A stretch of DNA of 64,000 nt from a virus. Where the stretch lies: IMG/VR virus record IMGVR_UViG_3300045988_159115; one strand, written 5' to 3'. The notes beneath the pieces are model-generated. The model made no database searches. It was not told where the DNA came from and saw nothing but the letters and a program-made list of their open reading frames with translations. Position numbers and translations under genes: made by a program. Numbering within the stretch: position 1 is the first letter of the stretch; every line of letters begins with the position of its first letter. This document shows, one piece after another, positions 10,684 through 53,835 of this stretch.

Positions 10684-11904
10684 TTACAAGAGCATAGTAT
10701 CCGGATCAATCTGATTCGATTTGATGTTAGCTGTATGGAATTTCTTCATGCCCATCTTCAGAAGCTTTGTGGAAATCTGAGGGCAACCGAGGCCAATATT
10801 CAGGTTATCCAGCTTGTAGTTCAGCTCTCCTGCACAGATATTGCAGATATGCTTTCCCTTGCAATACATGGGGCTACGCAGTTTGATAGGCTTACCGACA
10901 TACTTACCGATAATCTCAGGAGTCAAGCAGACATACTTACCATTTTCTACGATGTACCGATACTCAAAGTCACGAGTATCTTTCGGAGTCATGATGTAGG
11001 AAATGGTCTTTTTTGTCCCGCAATCACTGCCATGCTCATCAAGAACTTCGCCCTGCATTGCTGCCAGAAGCTGTTTTGTCAGGTAGCCAGACTCAGCAGT
11101 ACCGACTGCTTTCGGGTATGCACCAGAAACGACGGATGTGCCGAAAGAAGGAATGTCTTGCTTTGTGATACCATCCATGAAAGACGATCTGACGATTTCA
11201 TATTCGCCAGTAATATTATTCATGGTAGCACCCTTATACAACATCATATTCTTGTAGTTACCGAAGTTACCACGAGCACCAGAATTATAAAGGTCCATAC
11301 CGGGGTCATCTGCAAGAAGTTTCTTTGCCTCACTGGTGAGTTCTTTCTCGATTTTCTCGGAAGTAACGATGTCACCCTCATTGAGCTTGTCATCATATTT
11401 CTTGAAAAGCTCTTCTTTTCGCTTAGCAATCTCAGGAGGGCATGCAATTGTCTTCTCACTGAAAGAAGTAGTGATAACAGAGTTCAGCTGCATTCCAAGA
11501 GTATCACGGTAATCGTAATAGTCATAGAAATCATTGATGCTGATCTTATCATCAATCAGAGCTTTTGCAAGTTGACTTTCGATAGATTCATATTTACCCT
11601 GAGTAACAGGCTCATTCACATACCCGAGAACACTCTGGAATCCAAAGCGTTCGATGAGGTACTTATTGAAGATGAACCTACCGACGGTTGTCTTCGTTTT
11701 CTCTTTTACGAAATACTCAGAAGGCTCCAATGTCATTTCGTCCCAAGTACTGAACTTAGATTTCTTAACTCCACTGAAAGCGTTCTGAGCATCTGTAGTA
11801 TCTCCGAAGAGATAGACGAGCTTTGTGAAAGTAAGATCATCCGGTTTTAATTCCAGAAGTTCTTTCTTTTCTGCTTCTGTGATTTTTCGAGCAGGTCTAG
11901 GCAT
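10684..11904 (-). CDS. multisubunit RNA polymerase beta-prime-like fragment (bridge helix to start of trigger loop)
   Basis: TTVGRFIFNKYL matches TTVGRxIFN. NSGARGNFGNYKNMMLYKG matches SGARGSxxQIRQLAGMRG. GTAESGYLTKQLLAAMQ matches ADSGYLTRRLVDV. RSPMYC..ICNICAGE and GCPQISTKLLKMGMKKFHTA match AAQSIGEPGTQLTMRTFH. Confidence 0.8.
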   Translation of the reverse strand: MPRPARKITEAEKKELLELKPDDLTFTKLVYLFGDTTDAQNAFSGVKKSKFSTWDEMTLEPSEYFVKEKTKTTVGRFIFNKYLIERFGFQSVLGYVNEPVTQGKYESIESQLAKALIDDKISINDFYDYYDYRDTLGMQLNSVITTSFSEKTIACPPEIAKRKEELFKKYDDKLNEGDIVTSEKIEKELTSEAKKLLADDPGMDLYNSGARGNFGNYKNMMLYKGATMNNITGEYEIVRSSFMDGITKQDIPSFGTSVVSGAYPKAVGTAESGYLTKQLLAAMQGEVLDEHGSDCGTKKTISYIMTPKDTRDFEYRYIVENGKYVCLTPEIIGKYVGKPIKLRSPMYCKGKHICNICAGELNYKLDNLNIGLGCPQISTKLLKMGMKKFHTANIKSNQIDPDTMLL

Positions 11905-12724: not shown

Positions 12725-12742
12725 TTATAATGATATATTATA
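12725..12742 (+). promoter_or_regulatory. early-type promoter motif TTATAATGATATATTATA
   Basis: Identical 18-mer at 18416 and, on the minus strand, at 52599. It is oriented toward 12842-. Confidence 0.65.
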
Positions 12743-18415: not shown

Positions 18416-18433
18416 TTATAATGATATATTATA
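18416..18433 (+). promoter_or_regulatory. early-type promoter motif TTATAATGATATATTATA
   Basis: Directly follows the hairpin at 18374-18418; oriented toward 18514-. Confidence 0.65.
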
Positions 18434-18513
18434 CACATAAGAAGCCATAGAGGAATGGAAGCAATAACCCATCGCAGTTAAATTTTTCATAATTGAAAGG
18501 AATTCAAAATATT

Positions 18514-18711
18514 ATGACAAACGATACTGCGCACTTCTATCCCTCTATGACCATGACACAGGCCGAGCTTATAGCTAGACTCACTTTTCCAGGAGGAGCA
18601 TTTAGATATGTCTCTAAATGGGAAGCTGACGAAGCTGCGGCTCGCGGAGAGAACTTGATTTATATCAAGCCTCCAATTGAATACTCATTGCAGATTCCCA
18701 ACCATCTGTAA
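18514..18711 (+). CDS. hypothetical protein (65 aa)
   Basis: The first ATG lies downstream of the early-type promoter at 18416-18433. Terminator at 18723-18766. Confidence 0.5.
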   Translation: MTNDTAHFYPSMTMTQAELIARLTFPGGAFRYVSKWEADEAAARGENLIYIKPPIEYSLQIPNHL

Positions 18712-18763
18712 TTAGTATTAGGAGAAAGTTGGTTCTTATATGGCTTCTTACAACTTTCTTTTT

Positions 18764-42684: not shown

Positions 42685-42696
42685 TTATATATTATA
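42685..42696 (+). promoter_or_regulatory. early-type promoter motif TTATATATTATA
   Basis: Oriented toward 42750-42929. Confidence 0.6.
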
Positions 42697-42749
42697 TATG
42701 TGAGCGCAATTAGGATGATGGCTGTAATGTGAAAAGGAGGTATACTTAT

Positions 42750-42929
42750 ATGCATATAAGTTACAACCCTTTAACAGCGCTCACATATAAGGCTCTGAAT
42801 CCTGGAATTTGGGTAGACTCAACCTCTCCCATTGAATGGATTCAGAATGATTCTCAGTATACTATTAGCGTCCGAAAGACCGTTGACGTTACTGAGGATC
42901 CGGCTACCGTCACCGTTATTGACGGATAA
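42750..42929 (+). CDS. hypothetical small protein (59 aa)
   Basis: SD AAAGGAGG; early-type promoter at 42685-42696; terminator at 42934-42989. Confidence 0.55.
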   Translation: MHISYNPLTALTYKALNPGIWVDSTSPIEWIQNDSQYTISVRKTVDVTEDPATVTVIDG

Positions 42930-42933
42930 CTAA

Positions 42934-51818: not shown

Positions 51819-52310
51819 ATGAGTAGTAAACTGGAAGAAGCTTTTATGGAAGCTTACAAAGAAAATCTGATTCCAGCCGATATGGTAATGGAAGCATTTG
51901 ATGGAATTAAAGCAGCAATCCATAACCATAAAGAAGAGAAAGCTGCAAATAAATCTGGTAATGATCCGAAACTTGCGGATAAGATTTATAAGAAGCTTTC
52001 TCCTTATCTTCCGAGCAATTGGAAGAAATTTTCTATTAGCGTAGCAGATCATAAGGAAGACCCAAATAAATATGGCGTTCTTATGATGATTACAGACAGC
52101 ACTGGCAAAACCAGTGATTGGACAAAACTGAAATGTGCTGACCGTCCTGAGGCGACTCGTGCTATGATGAACTGTGCCAATCTTCTGCAGAAGCATCAGA
52201 AAGGATTTGATGGTACTTCATTTGAATGCAGTGGAGTTTCTCTCACATTTACGCAAGAGTCTGGAGTTCGTCAGTATAAGTTTTCTTATAAGAAAAAGAA
52301 GTCAGAATAA
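51819..52310 (+). CDS. hypothetical protein (163 aa)
   Basis: SD AAAGGAG; ACA-N6-TAA motif at 51773-51790; bidirectional terminator at 52315-52361. Confidence 0.7.
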   Translation: MSSKLEEAFMEAYKENLIPADMVMEAFDGIKAAIHNHKEEKAANKSGNDPKLADKIYKKLSPYLPSNWKKFSISVADHKEDPNKYGVLMMITDSTGKTSDWTKLKCADRPEATRAMMNCANLLQKHQKGFDGTSFECSGVSLTFTQESGVRQYKFSYKKKKSE

Positions 52311-52314
52311 AAAA

Positions 52315-52361
52315 TAAAAAAAAGATAGTAACCAATTTGCATTTGAGTTACTATCTTTTTT
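52315..52361. terminator. bidirectional terminator shared by 51819-52310 and the ncRNA candidate
   Basis: AAAAAAGATAGTAAC / GTTACTATCTTTTTT with A- and T-runs on both sides. Confidence 0.7.
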
Positions 52362-52385
52362 GCTTCCAAAGAGAAGTGATTGAAC
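52362..52385. repeat. left arm of perfect 24-bp inverted repeat GCTTCCAAAGAGAAGTGATTGAAC
   Basis: Exact reverse complement of 52531-52554. Confidence 0.95.
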
Positions 52386-52530
52386 TGATCCAGGCATAAC
52401 ACTTGTGTTCCATCCTCACCTCATCACTACTGTGAGAGGTATGAGCCGCGATATACTCTTTTCTTTTCCTTCATCATTATTAATGAAGGCAGCACCACGC
52501 CTATCATGAACACGTCGGTTTAACCCGGAA

Positions 52531-52554
52531 GTTCAATCACTTCTCTTTGGAAGC
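52531..52554. repeat. right arm of perfect 24-bp inverted repeat
   Basis: Exact reverse complement of 52362-52385. Confidence 0.95.
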
Positions 52555-52598
52555 GAATTAATTATAAGTACTTATGATACTTACTATTTATTCACATA

Positions 52599-52616
52599 TA
52601 TAATATATCATTATAA
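52599..52616 (-). promoter_or_regulatory. early-type promoter motif (minus strand TTATAATGATATATTATA) driving the ncRNA candidate
   Basis: Full 18-mer identical to the copies at 12725 and 18416. No ORF lies downstream before the terminator at 52361-52315. Confidence 0.6.
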
Positions 52617-52638
52617 TTTAAGGCTTTATCGTTAAAAT

Positions 52639-52673
52639 ACCACGGATGTACTCCGAAGAAATACATCCGTGGT
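52639..52673 (-). terminator. hairpin terminator of 53074-52772
   Basis: 12-bp stem ACCACGGATGTA / TACATCCGTGGT. On the minus strand it is followed by ATTTT. Confidence 0.55.
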
Positions 52674-52771
52674 TATACACAGAAACGCTTTGATAACAAA
52701 ATGTTTAGATAAAATCCATTATAAGCGAATAAAGTAAGTATATTAATCTAGTCCGTTATACTAGAAGAATA

Positions 52772-53074
52772 TCAAGTCTGTAAAGTCCAAGTTGCAGTGC
52801 TTAGATCGGTAATCGTTGACGCACATCGTCTTATTAATGTTTTATTACGATCGTCGGCGATAAAAATCTGGAAAGCCGTACCGTCGGTGTTAGTAAAACA
52901 CGCTCCATTTCCGACGCCAAAATTCTTATTAAGCTCATTATCTTTAGGCAGCCAAGTGTAACACCATCCTTTTGGTAGATCCGTAAGAGAATCATTTGGA
53001 CATACGTTTGGATAATTATCAATATTCAATTTTATGTCTTCATTTGAAGTTCTAAGCATAACCGATTTACTCAT
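52772..53074 (-). CDS. hypothetical Cys-containing small protein (100 aa), accessory
   Basis: ATG at 53074 is 9 nt after GAGG. Codon usage is atypical for the window (AT-rich third positions). It contains CPND..LPKGW. A hairpin terminator lies at 52639-52673. Confidence 0.55.
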   Translation of the reverse strand: MSKSVMLRTSNEDIKLNIDNYPNVCPNDSLTDLPKGWCYTWLPKDNELNKNFGVGNGACFTNTDGTAFQIFIADDRNKTLIRRCASTITDLSTATWTLQT

Positions 53075-53108
53075 TTTTTGATACCTCGGGCTTAGTACCT
53101 TCATCATC

Positions 53109-53137
53109 CTAACATATAATCAAAGATTATATGTTAG
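53109..53137. repeat. 29-nt palindrome P1 (13-bp stem, AAA loop) in the leader of the minus-strand gene
   Basis: CTAACATATAATCAAAGATTATATGTTAG. It is the inverted copy of P2, differing only by a paired T-A to G-C change. Confidence 0.9.
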
Positions 53138-53141
53138 CAAA

Positions 53142-53184
53142 AACGAGCCCAAAACTATTCAAATCAGGTAGTTTTGGGCTCGTT
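53142..53184 (-). terminator. 16-bp hairpin followed by a T-run on the minus strand (attenuator-like)
   Basis: AACGAGCCCAAAACTA / TAGTTTTGGGCTCGTT. On the minus strand it is followed by TTTTTG, directly before P1. Confidence 0.45.
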
Positions 53185-53198
53185 ACTGCGGCTCTTTT

Positions 53199-53239
53199 GC
53201 CTAGCAAGAATTCAGACAAAATGAATTCAAATGCTAGGC
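53199..53239. repeat. long imperfect hairpin (GCCTAGCA..GAATTCA / TGAATTC..TGCTAGGC)
   Basis: Two nested complementary blocks; no T-run on either side. Confidence 0.7.
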
Positions 53240-53260
53240 GTGTAGCGATAGTTATGATGA

Positions 53261-53272
53261 TAAAATATTGTT
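53261..53272 (-). promoter_or_regulatory. ACA-N6-TA motif (AACAATATTTTA) inside the structured divergent control region
   Basis: It points toward hairpin 53199-53239, terminator-like hairpin 53142-53184, P1 and gene 53074-52772. Confidence 0.35.
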
Positions 53273-53328
53273 AGTTTCGTTCAATAAAGAACGTAGCTAC
53301 GTTGAATAATATTCGTTGCCGAATATTA

Positions 53329-53357
53329 CTAACATATAAGCTTTGCTTATATGTTAG
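53329..53357. repeat. 29-nt palindrome P2 (13-bp stem, TTT loop) in the leader of the plus-strand gene
   Basis: CTAACATATAAGCTTTGCTTATATGTTAG, preceded by an 8-bp hairpin (53308-53327) and a 14-nt palindrome (53290-53303). Confidence 0.9.
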
Positions 53358-53385
53358 GATGGTGCATGCTATGGAGGTTTATTCC

Positions 53386-53784
53386 ATGAGCATTGCAACT
53401 GGTGATAAAAAAATTAGCTTGAGAGTAGGCGGAAAGGACCTAGCTCTAAACGATGGATTTCCATTATCAAATCCAGAAGATTTTAAGCATACACAACTTG
53501 AATCTAGAATAACTGATAGTTTATATGATAATGAAAAAACTCAATATCGACCAACATTTTCTACAAACGAGCTACATGATAATTTACTTGAATTTGAAAA
53601 TTCACGGACTAACGTAATATGCGGCGTTGGTATCGGAACAAGCGGAACCAATCACGGTATTTATAGTTCGTCTTGTCAAAGAGACTGCCCGAATGATGGT
53701 TGGCTTATACGAGCAACAGATACTGGATCAGTATACATCTACGGAAAACTTATCAGAGATTCAAAAGGTAATTGGTATATATAA
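53386..53784 (+). CDS. hypothetical Cys-containing small protein (132 aa), accessory; fibre-tip-like C-terminus
   Basis: ATG at 53386 is 8 nt after GGAGG. Codon usage is atypical. It contains CPNDGW; the C-terminus NHGIYSSS..GWLIRATDTGSVYIYGKLIRDSKGNWYI is reminiscent of fibre distal domains, but the resemblance is weak. Confidence 0.55.
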   Translation: MSIATGDKKISLRVGGKDLALNDGFPLSNPEDFKHTQLESRITDSLYDNEKTQYRPTFSTNELHDNLLEFENSRTNVICGVGIGTSGTNHGIYSSSCQRDCPNDGWLIRATDTGSVYIYGKLIRDSKGNWYI

Positions 53785-53835
53785 TAAAAAGAAGCTACCT
53801 GCATTTCTTAATTGGATTTGCAGGTAGCTTCTTTT

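What the first reader, a model, noticed from the sequence alone, without database searches (positions are those of the whole stretch)
52315..52625. Stand-alone promoter, 24-bp-clamped structured RNA and terminator with no ORF: candidate abundant early phage ncRNA of unknown class
Between two terminated protein genes lies a complete transcription unit without a credible ORF.

- Promoter: on the minus strand, the full 18-mer TTATAATGATATATTATA (52599-52616) is identical to the two strongest copies of the recurrent early-type motif, at 12725 and 18416.
- Leader: about 35 nt, containing the 12-nt palindrome ATAAGTACTTAT.
- Clamp: a perfect 24-bp inverted repeat GCTTCCAAAGAGAAGTGATTGAAC (52362-52385 and 52531-52554) encloses 145 nt.
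- Terminator: the A/T-flanked hairpin at 52315-52361 follows immediately.
- Core composition: the enclosed core is visibly GC-richer (CCGCG, CCACGCC, CGTCGG, CCCGG) than the AT-rich surroundings, as expected for a folded RNA in an AT-rich genome.
- Strand assignment: the clamp extends by 6 further pairs (52389-52394 with 52524-52529). One of these is a G-U wobble in the minus-strand RNA but an A-C mismatch in the plus-strand RNA. That agrees with the promoter orientation.
- Internal helices: CCTTCAT/ATGAAGG (52468-52489) and an 8-bp bulged helix (52419-52439).
- Independence: the upstream minus-strand gene has its own terminator (52639-52673), so this is an independent unit.

I do not recognise the fold as 6S, tmRNA, RNase P, tRNA or a known phage sRNA.
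Basis: partly seen in the sequence, partly recalled or inferred. Interest (0 to 1): 0.8.

Follow-up and report, generated by a model that had tools for sequence, protein, structure and literature searches.

The report
Stand-alone structured RNA gene in gut jumbo phage
Between two protein genes of an uncultured gut jumbo phage sits a self-contained promoter–RNA–terminator cassette whose folded shape, but no protein reading frame, is preserved across strains, so it is most likely a new phage non-coding RNA of unknown function.

Summary

- **Phage and promoter:** the window is a ~255-264 kb human/pig-gut jumbo phage that encodes a multisubunit RNA polymerase. The motif fits the AR9 early-promoter consensus, ATATATTAT-(6N)-G+1, which puts the transcription start at G 52593 on the minus strand.
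- **Structure is under selection:** 21 distinct strain variants (90-97% identical) keep a leader hairpin, a 25-31 bp closing duplex and a three-way junction. Four base pairs show compensatory changes. G-U-type changes favour the minus strand. Divergence is 3-8%, against 12% at third codon positions of the neighbouring gene.
- **Not coding:** a 52-aa ORF appears in about half the variants and only 26 aa in the window. It fails every coding test.
- **Not a MITE or invertible switch:** strains lacking the element have lost the whole promoter-RNA-terminator module, not just the repeat-bounded part. The element is single-copy and always in one orientation.
- **No known relatives:** there is no Rfam match, no paralogue, and no homologue in phages whose neighbouring protein is 60% or 42% identical.

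Verdict: a real, clade-restricted, accessory structured ncRNA "moron". Its function is unknown and its expression is untested.

The parts
52599..52616 (-). Early-type (virion RNA polymerase-like) promoter motif TTATAATGATATATTATA. The core ATATATTAT lies at 52600-52608. The predicted transcription start is G at 52593, six nt downstream of the core.
   Evidence: Identical 18-mers at 12725 and 18416; 9 copies against 0.21 expected. Fits the AR9 consensus AAATATATATTAT-(6N)-G+1. Exact ATATATTAT sites lie upstream of SD+ATG elsewhere in the window. The motif is invariant in all strains whose contig reaches it.
52555..52593 (-). 5' leader: a 15-bp A/U-rich hairpin (P0) beginning at the predicted +1.
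   Evidence: Present in the minimum-free-energy and consensus structures. All 315 cells are paired. The three changes are all G-U on the minus strand. The loop is flipped in L025/L029 with the stem retained.
52531..52554 (-). 5' arm of the closing duplex (P1).
   Evidence: Perfect 24-nt inverted repeat. Compensatory pairs at alignment columns 75-264 (UA to CG) and 88-251 (GC to GU to AU).
52386..52530 (-). Core. It holds the stalk extension with internal loops; P2 (52508-52513 / 52405-52410); and a three-way junction. The junction carries P3 (52493-52502 / 52444-52453), the apical hairpin P3a (52468-52489) and the side hairpin P4 (52411-52443). A purine-rich internal loop lies at 52454-52467.
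   Evidence: Core folds at -47.9 kcal/mol, z = -4.06, on the minus strand, against -35.8, z = -2.85, on the plus strand. P3a has two compensatory pairs, 142-155 and 145-152 (CG x12, UA x7, UG x2). P3 never varies and needs three G-U pairs, so it forms only on the minus strand: 99.5% of cells paired against 68.3%. The loop is invariant except for the length of one A-run.
52362..52385 (-). 3' arm of the closing duplex (P1).
52310..52361 (-). Terminator: a 15-18-bp hairpin (52318-52361) followed by U8AU5. The same hairpin, read on the plus strand, ends the convergent 163-aa gene, whose stop codon is at 52308-52310.
   Evidence: The stem is invariant in 21 variants; the loop is inverted in L013/L014. 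In AR9, strong termination was seen at predicted terminators. The simple scan did not list this hairpin because its loop exceeds 8 nt.

Best explanation
The region is an autonomous gene for a structured non-coding RNA.

**Proposed transcript.** A phage early-type promoter starts transcription at about 52593 on the minus strand. The transcript, about 280 nt, ends at the hairpin and U-tract at 52361-52310.

**Proposed fold.** The RNA forms a 5' protective hairpin, then a 25-31-bp terminal duplex made by its two ends. The duplex closes a stalk that ends in a three-way junction (P3/P3a and P4), followed by the terminator hairpin.

**Genomic status.** The whole promoter-RNA-terminator unit behaves as a dispensable "moron"-like module. 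It lies in a strain-variable region of an uncultured AR9/PBS1-like gut jumbo phage.

**Shown here:** the anatomy, selection on the RNA fold, absence of coding constraint, and the modular presence/absence.

**Inferred, with my estimates:**
- It is transcribed early by the virion RNA polymerase (by analogy with AR9).
- The long perfect duplex is an RNase III substrate. Cleavage would release a roughly 150-190-nt core with a short stem, as happens with rRNA precursor stalks (about 35% likely).
- The RNA acts in trans on a host or phage factor, perhaps through the invariant purine-rich loop (about 40% likely; the target is unknown).
For: - **Promoter:** searches support the motif, and the phage encodes a multisubunit RNA polymerase beta subunit (phrog_2962, E = 4.6e-73).
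- **Fold conservation:** 21 distinct variants from 27 loci keep the fold, with 99.1% of 2142 cells paired. Four pairs have changes on both sides. None of 500 shuffles reached the observed covariation score. Registers slid by 1-3 columns gave 0-2 such pairs.
- **Strand:** 13 variant pair types (35 cells) remain paired only on the minus strand, against 9 types (11 cells) only on the plus strand. Four pairs are predominantly G-U on the minus strand. P3 is 99.5% paired on the minus strand and 68.3% on the plus. The covariance model scores 197.5 bits on the minus strand and 28.6 on the plus.
- **Purifying selection:** mean pairwise divergence is 3.4% at paired sites and 8.3% at unpaired sites. Third codon positions of the adjacent gene diverge by 12.2%.
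- **Not coding:** there are four frame-changing indel columns, a nonsense variant and a lost start codon among 21 variants. There is no SD. Divergence by codon position is 6.2/2.3/5.2%. Gene callers never called the ORF in any locus. tblastn found no relative.
- **Modular:** L019-L021 lack exactly terminator + RNA + promoter. The same module abuts two different right-hand flanks.
Against: - No expression data exist, and the phage is uncultured.
- The promoter assignment rests on analogy with AR9, whose proteins are only about 28% identical to those of this lineage.
- All homologues are 90% or more identical, so covariation rests on four pairs. P3 and much of the stalk never vary.
- Counted by column, the strand asymmetry is modest: 13 against 9.
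- The RNA is absent from some strains and from the syntenic region of relatives at 60% and 42% identity. It is therefore young and dispensable.
- The 5' half pairs with the 3' half throughout. That is also what a recent fold-back duplication would leave.
- No target, partner or known RNA class was found.
Confidence: 0.65

Rival explanations
1. Non-functional leftover. A promoter and a terminator bracket scrap sequence whose hairpin shape is the residue of a recent inverted (fold-back) duplication or cassette rearrangement. It is transcribed, if at all, without consequence.
For: - The element is clade-restricted and missing in some strains.
- The 5' half is complementary to the 3' half in the same order throughout.
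- Hairpin-loop flips in the leader and terminator show that DNA-level palindrome rearrangements occur here.
- The locus is a variable region.
Against: - Only the outer 24 nt and the 10-nt P3a strand are exact complements. The middle of the 5' half is not a reverse copy of the 3' half, yet it still pairs through G-U pairs.
- Compensatory changes are present.
- Divergence is 3-8% against a 12% near-neutral proxy.
- Helix-breaking variants are nearly all singletons, whereas helix-keeping ones reach 7-10 of 21 sequences.
Confidence: 0.12
2. A small-protein gene carried on a highly structured mRNA. Candidates are the 52-aa ORF MNRRGAAFIINDEGKRKEY...WKQKR seen in many strains, or the 20-aa ORF MEHKCYAWISSITSLWKQKR, which is preceded by GAGGUGAGG.
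For: - The 52-aa ORF is intact in 10 of 21 variants, and in 3 more (L026, L009, L025) with a C-terminal extension caused by an extra A. L012 reads the same but its contig stops short of the promoter.
- L013/L014 carry two indels that restore the frame.
- Another early unit in the window (18416-18760) has a repeat-clamped small ORF.
Against: - The window's own copy is cut to 26 aa.
- Frameshift, nonsense or start-loss variants occur in 8 of 21 sequences.
- The AUG has no SD and sits inside helix P2.
- Divergence by codon position is 6.2/2.3/5.2%. The neighbouring gene shows 1.2% at positions 1+2 and 12.2% at position 3.
- The Trp codon of the short ORF varies among W, L, G and stop.
- The ORF was never called as a gene.
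- tblastn found no match in 50,697 phage records.
Confidence: 0.08
3. A cis-acting transcriptional device rather than a trans-acting RNA. The early promoter fires toward the end of the convergent 163-aa gene. The unit would work by transcriptional interference, by antisense read-through, or by insulating neighbouring units. On this view the fold serves only stability or termination.
For: - The RNA shares its terminator with the convergent gene and ends at that gene's stop codon.
- No trans target was found in the window.
Against: - A 15-18-bp hairpin plus U8 should stop most read-through.
- Selection acts on internal helices far from the terminator, such as P3a.
- Strains without the cassette keep the 161-aa gene intact and simply use the next terminator.
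Confidence: 0.07
4. A DNA-level element: a MITE-like transposon with 24-bp terminal inverted repeats, an invertible switch (inverton), or a cruciform or origin structure.
For: A perfect 24-bp inverted repeat flanks 145 bp. An A/T-rich neighbourhood and a promoter lie nearby.
Against: - The empty site in L019-L021 shows that the insertion/deletion ends about 45 bp and about 65 bp outside the arms. It includes the terminator and the promoter. The junction has only an ATAG-type microhomology and no target-site duplication.
- The element is single-copy: one site per 149-259 kb contig, and no paralogue in the window.
- The core has the same orientation in all 32 loci (27, 5; alignment).
- G-U-type asymmetric arm changes would be A-C mismatches on the other DNA strand.
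- Internal helices covary.
Confidence: 0.05

Closest known systems
Intergenic sRNAs/ncRNAs mapped by transcriptomics in jumbo phages (phiKZ, 201phi2-1, PA5oct)
   Same: These are short stand-alone promoter-to-terminator units without a coding sequence in giant phages that use their own RNA polymerases. Their function is unknown (PMC11512511; PMC13282480; PMC7318152).
   Different: No sequence or Rfam relationship. This RNA is longer and is closed by an unusually long perfect duplex. It comes from an AR9-like lineage of gut phages, and its expression has not been measured.
Phage 'morons' (autonomous promoter-gene-terminator modules inserted between genes)
   Same: It is a self-contained unit with its own promoter and terminator. 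It is present or absent between otherwise collinear strains and adjoins different neighbours.
   Different: The cargo is an RNA rather than a protein. The phage is a virulent-type jumbo phage, and the promoter is the phage's own early type rather than a host sigma-70 promoter.
RNase III processing stalks (rRNA precursors, T7 early RNA sites)
   Same: Sequences at the 5' and 3' ends pair over more than 20 bp around a folded RNA body. Such a duplex is the canonical RNase III substrate (established knowledge).
   Different: Cleavage is not shown here. The host and its RNase III are unknown. T7 sites have internal loops, whereas this duplex is perfect over 24-25 bp.
phi29-family packaging RNA (pRNA, RF00044)
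   Same: It is an early-promoter-driven phage RNA of about 120-174 nt, with a 5'/3' terminal helix and a three-way junction bearing two hairpins.
   Different: No Rfam hit even at E <= 10. The two loops show no complementarity. The phage packages with a large terminase, and the RNA is dispensable in some strains.
6S RNA
   Same: It is a stable structured RNA of about 180-200 nt with a long closing helix. Sequestering host RNA polymerase would suit a phage that brings its own.
   Different: No Rfam hit. The structure is branched, not a rod with a central open-promoter-like bubble.

Membership tests
Any Rfam 15 family (6S, tmRNA, RNase P, SRP, Y RNA, pRNA, ribozymes, phage sRNAs, etc.) | Covariance-model score at or above the gathering threshold | tested here: not met
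   No match in the whole window at gathering thresholds. At E <= 10 on 52200-52750 only spurious hairpin-level hits appeared, 12-22 bits against thresholds of 40-184. ARAGORN found no tRNA or tmRNA.
AR9-type early (virion RNA polymerase) transcription unit | Promoter AAATATATATTAT-(6N)-G+1 | tested here: met
   The minus strand reads TAATGATATATTAT-ATATGT-G. The 9-nt core is exact, the spacer is 6 nt and +1 is G at 52593. Only the upstream AAAT differs.
AR9-type early (virion RNA polymerase) transcription unit | The phage encodes phiKZ/AR9-type multisubunit RNA polymerases | tested here: met
   10684-11904 (-) matches phrog_2962 'RNA polymerase beta subunit', E = 4.6e-73. The nearest cultured relatives are Staphylococcus S6-like phages and Yersinia phiR1-37.
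AR9-type early (virion RNA polymerase) transcription unit | Transcript appears early and independently of protein synthesis | not testable with these tools
   The phage is uncultured and no RNA data are held.
Structured ncRNA gene (general) | Helices maintained by compensatory or wobble substitutions, with selection stronger than on neutral sites | tested here: met
   Four pairs have changes on both sides. None of 500 shuffles reached the covariation score, and the slide controls were clean. Divergence is 3.4% at paired sites and 8.3% at unpaired sites, against 12.2% at third codon positions. The depth is shallow, because all sequences are 90% or more identical.
Protein-coding gene | Reading frame conserved, third-position excess of substitutions, translation signals | tested here: not met
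   Frame-changing indels at four columns, plus nonsense and start-loss variants. Divergence by codon position is 6.2/2.3/5.2%. There is no SD. The ORF was never called and has no homologue.
MITE / TIR transposon | Terminal inverted repeats at the ends of the inserted unit, target-site duplication, multiple copies | tested here: not met
   The empty site in L019-L021 places the ends about 45 and 65 bp outside the arms, with no target-site duplication. The element is single-copy.
Invertible DNA switch (inverton) | The segment between the inverted repeats is found in both orientations | tested here: not met
   All 32 loci align collinearly.
Retron ncRNA (msr-msd) | a1/a2 terminal duplex plus an adjacent reverse transcriptase gene | tested here: not met
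   A terminal duplex is present. No RT domain appears among called genes within 3-5 kb in any locus, and a terminator follows immediately.
Type I toxin mRNA with 5'-3' fold-back (hok-like) | Conserved small hydrophobic ORF | tested here: not met
   The ORFs are neither conserved nor membrane-like in most strains.
RNA anti-CRISPR / CRISPR-repeat mimic | Arm sequence matches a CRISPR repeat in bacterial genomes | tested here: not met
   The arm pattern TTCAATYRCTTCTCTTTGGRAGC has no match in 185,579 species' genomes. This was an exact-pattern search only.
Phage moron | Autonomous promoter + cargo + terminator, with presence/absence polymorphism between collinear genomes | tested here: met
Intrinsic terminator | Stable hairpin followed by a U-tract | tested here: inconclusive
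   A 15-18-bp stem followed by U8AU5. The simple scanner did not list it, because the loop is 14 nt and the stem has few G-C pairs. Termination by the phage polymerase is not testable here.

The most novel reading that the evidence does not exclude
The cassette is an RNA-only early effector, an "RNA moron". Its long perfect duplex and invariant purine-rich loop would let it titrate or decoy a host factor in the first minutes of infection. Candidate targets are RNase III, an RNA chaperone, or an RNA-sensing immune protein. That would make it a strain-variable RNA counter-defence or host-takeover gene in a jumbo phage.
Probability: 0.12. Interest if true: 0.8.

Novelty: new member of a known kind. 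Interest (0 to 1): 0.5.

Why it matters
Stand-alone non-coding RNAs are being found in giant phages by transcriptomics, but almost none has evolutionary support for its structure or an assigned function. This one has three useful properties.

- It was found from sequence alone in an uncultured but widespread human and pig gut jumbo phage.
- It has a precise predicted start and end.
- Its fold is supported by compensatory changes, and natural "knock-out" strains lack the cassette.

It therefore offers a defined, testable candidate for asking what early phage RNAs do. It also shows that accessory "moron" cargo in virulent jumbo phages can be RNA. Its narrow distribution and unknown function limit the surprise.

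Tried and rejected
- **Rfam:** the whole window at gathering thresholds and the locus at E <= 10 gave nothing meaningful.
- **DNA similarity to phages:** blastn of the locus and of 7.9 kb around it against 50,697 phage records gave no match.
- **More distant homologues:** the 163-aa neighbour has only near-identical relatives. The 680-aa neighbour has relatives at 60-64%, 42% and 34-39% identity. nhmmer and a covariance model found only promoter-like or simple-hairpin matches in their syntenic regions. L040 lacked the upstream flank.
- **Paralogues or antisense targets in the window:** none beyond chance 10-14-mers.
- **CRISPR-repeat mimic or host copy:** arm and core patterns gave no hit in genome contigs.
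- **52-aa ORF:** rejected as coding.
- **L050 lead:** in one metagenome contig a Dorea-type XRE HTH gene with a sigma-70 promoter replaces the RNA's 5' half. I considered that the RNA derives from the 3' end of that gene. The true Dorea locus shares only an 18-21-nt purine run (GATGAAGGAAAAGAAAAG). No protein in the 5.8-billion-sequence set carries the fused tail. The join sits at an A-run length polymorphism. I treat L050 as a probable assembly chimera and draw no host inference from it.
- **Not attempted:** structure prediction of the neighbouring proteins. Only near-identical sequences exist, so models would be poor and peripheral.

Full report
**Observation.**
- The 24-mer GCTTCCAAAGAGAAGTGATTGAAC occurs at 52362-52385 (+) and, reverse-complemented, at 52531-52554. 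It occurs nowhere else in the window, and none of 100 shuffles gave a match.
- A perfect 15-bp hairpin (52318-32 / 52347-61) lies between A- and T-runs. It directly abuts the left arm and the stop codon of the convergent 163-aa gene (51819-52310).
- The 18-mer TTATAATGATATATTATA at 52599-52616 (-) is identical to the copies at 12725 and 18416. It belongs to a motif with 9 copies at up to 3 mismatches, against 0.21 expected.
- The upstream minus-strand gene (52772-53107) has its own 12-bp hairpin at 52639-52673.
- The 291-nt unit folds at -117.9 kcal/mol (z = -12.6). The 145-nt core alone folds at -47.9 (z = -4.1) on the minus strand and -35.8 (z = -2.9) on the plus strand.
- One qualification: the core's 44% GC exceeds the flanking spacers but equals normal coding sequence in this genome.

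**What genome this is.**
- No DNA match exists among 50,697 phage records.
- The proteins identify a jumbo phage: terminase, major head and sheath proteins, an SbcC-like ATPase about 28% identical to those of Staphylococcus S6-like phages and Yersinia phiR1-37, DHFR, and a jumbo-phage multisubunit RNA polymerase beta subunit.
- Near-identical genomes of 255-264 kb recur in human (including Hadza) and pig gut metagenomes.

**Promoter.**
- The early promoters of AR9, which its virion RNA polymerase uses, have the consensus AAATATATATTAT-(6N)-G+1 (PMC5312081).
- The minus strand here reads ...AATGATATATTAT-ATATGT-G, which places +1 at G 52593.
- About a dozen exact ATATATTAT sites in the window lie 30-80 nt upstream of an SD+ATG in the right orientation. 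The motif therefore behaves as a genuine promoter of this phage.
- This copy alone is followed by no SD+ATG before the terminator.
- In AR9, predicted terminators terminate strongly.

**Homologues and structure.**
- The 163-aa neighbour has only near-identical relatives, in a cluster of 206 members.
- Fetching their contigs gave 27 loci with the element, representing 21 distinct sequences 90-97% identical to the window. Five more came from a metagenome scan.
- RNAalifold predicts the following, read 5' to 3':
  - a 15-bp leader hairpin starting at +1
  - a 25-31-bp closing duplex
  - a stalk with internal loops
  - helix P2
  - a three-way junction carrying P3/P3a and P4
  - the terminator
- 99.1% of 2142 cells are paired, and four pairs change on both sides:
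  - clamp 75-264, UA to CG
  - clamp 88-251, GC to GU to AU
  - P3a 142-155, CG to UA
  - P3a 145-152, CG x12, UA x7, UG x2
- None of 500 shuffles reached the observed covariation score. Registers slid by 1-3 columns gave 0-2 such pairs and only 39-49% pairing.

**Strand.**
- Among departures from the commonest pair, 13 types (35 cells) stay paired only in the minus-strand RNA, as G-U. Nine types (11 cells, seven of them singletons and two in two sequences each) would stay paired only on the plus strand.
- Four pairs are predominantly G-U on the minus strand. P3 is 99.5% paired on the minus strand and 68.3% on the plus.
- A covariance model scores the locus 197.5 bits on the minus strand and 28.6 on the plus.
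- This agrees with the orientation of the promoter and terminator.

**Selection.** Mean pairwise divergence is 3.4% at paired and 8.3% at unpaired RNA positions. Within the clamp-closed body the values are 4.3% and 5.6%. The adjacent gene shows 1.2% at codon positions 1+2 and 12.2% at position 3. The RNA therefore evolves two to three times slower than a near-neutral proxy.

**Is there an ORF?**
- The window has only a 26-aa ORF. About half the variants carry a 52-aa ORF on the RNA strand, and L013/L014 have two indels that restore its frame. I took this seriously.
- Among 21 variants there are four frame-changing indel columns, a TGG-to-TGA nonsense change, a lost ATG and a variable C-terminal read-through.
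- The AUG lacks an SD and lies in helix P2.
- Divergence by codon position is 6.2/2.3/5.2%, with no third-position excess.
- Gene callers never called the ORF in any locus.
- tblastn finds nothing similar in phages.
- Coding is therefore unlikely.

**DNA element?**
- Three contigs (L019-L021) of the same phage lack the element. The missing block runs from the start of the terminator stem to just upstream of the promoter 18-mer. The junction is AAAGATAG|ACCTAG, a microhomology between two terminator stems.
- The repeat arms are therefore internal to the insertion/deletion and there is no target-site duplication.
- The same promoter-RNA-terminator block abuts two different right-hand flanks: a 101/111-aa gene or a 171-173-aa gene.
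- It is single-copy per genome and always in the same orientation.
- This excludes a MITE or an inverton and fits a moron-like module.

**Distribution.**
- Relatives whose 680-aa neighbour is 60-64%, 42% or 34-39% identical show no homologue. nhmmer and the covariance model both fail to find one in the syntenic region.
- Exact arm and core patterns are absent from 185,579 species' genomes.
- There is no Rfam family.
- The RNA is thus young and restricted to one species-level clade.

**A misleading lead.**
- In contig L050, a Dorea-type 75-aa XRE regulator gene with a sigma-70 promoter replaces the promoter and the 5' half of the RNA. The join lies in the P3a loop.
- The genuine Dorea locus shares only an 18-21-nt purine run with the RNA. 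No database protein has the fused tail. The join coincides with an A-run length polymorphism.
- This is most simply an assembly chimera at a shared k-mer. I draw no inference from it.

**Mechanism.**
- Shown: an autonomous, dispensable module whose RNA fold on the minus strand is under purifying selection and which does not encode a conserved protein.
- Inferred: early transcription by the virion polymerase. The 5' hairpin and 3' terminator hairpin would protect a stable RNA.
- Inferred: the 24-25-bp perfect duplex, 25-31 bp with extensions, is a canonical RNase III substrate. Cleavage would release the junction-bearing core.
- Inferred: the purine-rich loop (52454-52467), invariant apart from the length of one A-run, and the junction strands are the most likely contact sites for a trans partner. 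No partner could be identified.
- Intergenic sRNAs without known function have been reported in phiKZ, 201phi2-1 and PA5oct. This is a new, unrelated member of that kind.

**Verdict.** It is a new candidate RNA family with modest but genuine covariation support. Its function is unknown, its expression is untested and its distribution is narrow. Interest is moderate (0.5).

Noticed in passing
window 53102-53140 and 53326-53364; L035:3582-3642; L039:3881-3931: Two copies of a palindromic hairpin (TAACATATAA-N7-TTATATGTTA) sit immediately upstream of the SD/start of two divergent genes. Relatives at 60% identity carry perfect 25-30-bp palindromes with a related core (AACAAATATACT/AGTATATTTGTT) in the syntenic gap. 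This may be an operator or a translational hairpin.
   Followed up: partly
window 18416-18760: A second early-promoter unit has an 18-nt inverted repeat (18438-18455 / 18733-18750) that clamps a 65-72-aa ORF with a good SD. The right arm is followed by a T-run, so 5'-3' end pairing may be a recurring design of this phage's early transcripts.
   Followed up: partly
window 42687-42930: An early promoter (same ATATGT-G start context) is followed by a 5'UTR hairpin (42695-42712 / 42772-42789). The hairpin buries the SD and AUG of a roughly 59-66-aa ORF.
   Followed up: no
L025/L029 (leader loop) and L013/L014 (terminator loop), equivalent to window 52570-52578 and 52333-52346: The loop sequences of two hairpins are exactly reverse-complemented in some strains while the stems are kept. 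These 'hairpin-loop flip' inversions indicate palindrome-mediated template switching or recombination.
   Followed up: no
L019-L021 (equivalent to window 52311-52620): Natural strains lack the whole terminator-RNA-promoter cassette. The junction lies at an AAAGATAG microhomology between two terminator stems.
   Followed up: yes
L050:1-500 (OIWU01014582.1): A Dorea longicatena-type XRE HTH gene, with a TTGACA-17-TATAGT promoter and TTGTCAA operators, is joined to the 3' half of the RNA at an 18-21-nt shared purine run. This is probably an assembly chimera.
   Followed up: yes
L009-L018 (left of the element; equivalent to window 51819-52310): The 163-aa neighbour gene is tandemly duplicated (162/163 + 161 aa) in some strains. 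IMG names it 'signal recognition particle GTPase', which Pfam and PHROGs do not support.
   Followed up: no
window 52620-53800 versus L004:6800-8100: The region just upstream of the RNA promoter is a strain-variable slot. It holds either a 101/111-aa gene plus a 133-160-aa gene, or a 171-173-aa gene. Homology breaks exactly at the promoter edge.
   Followed up: partly
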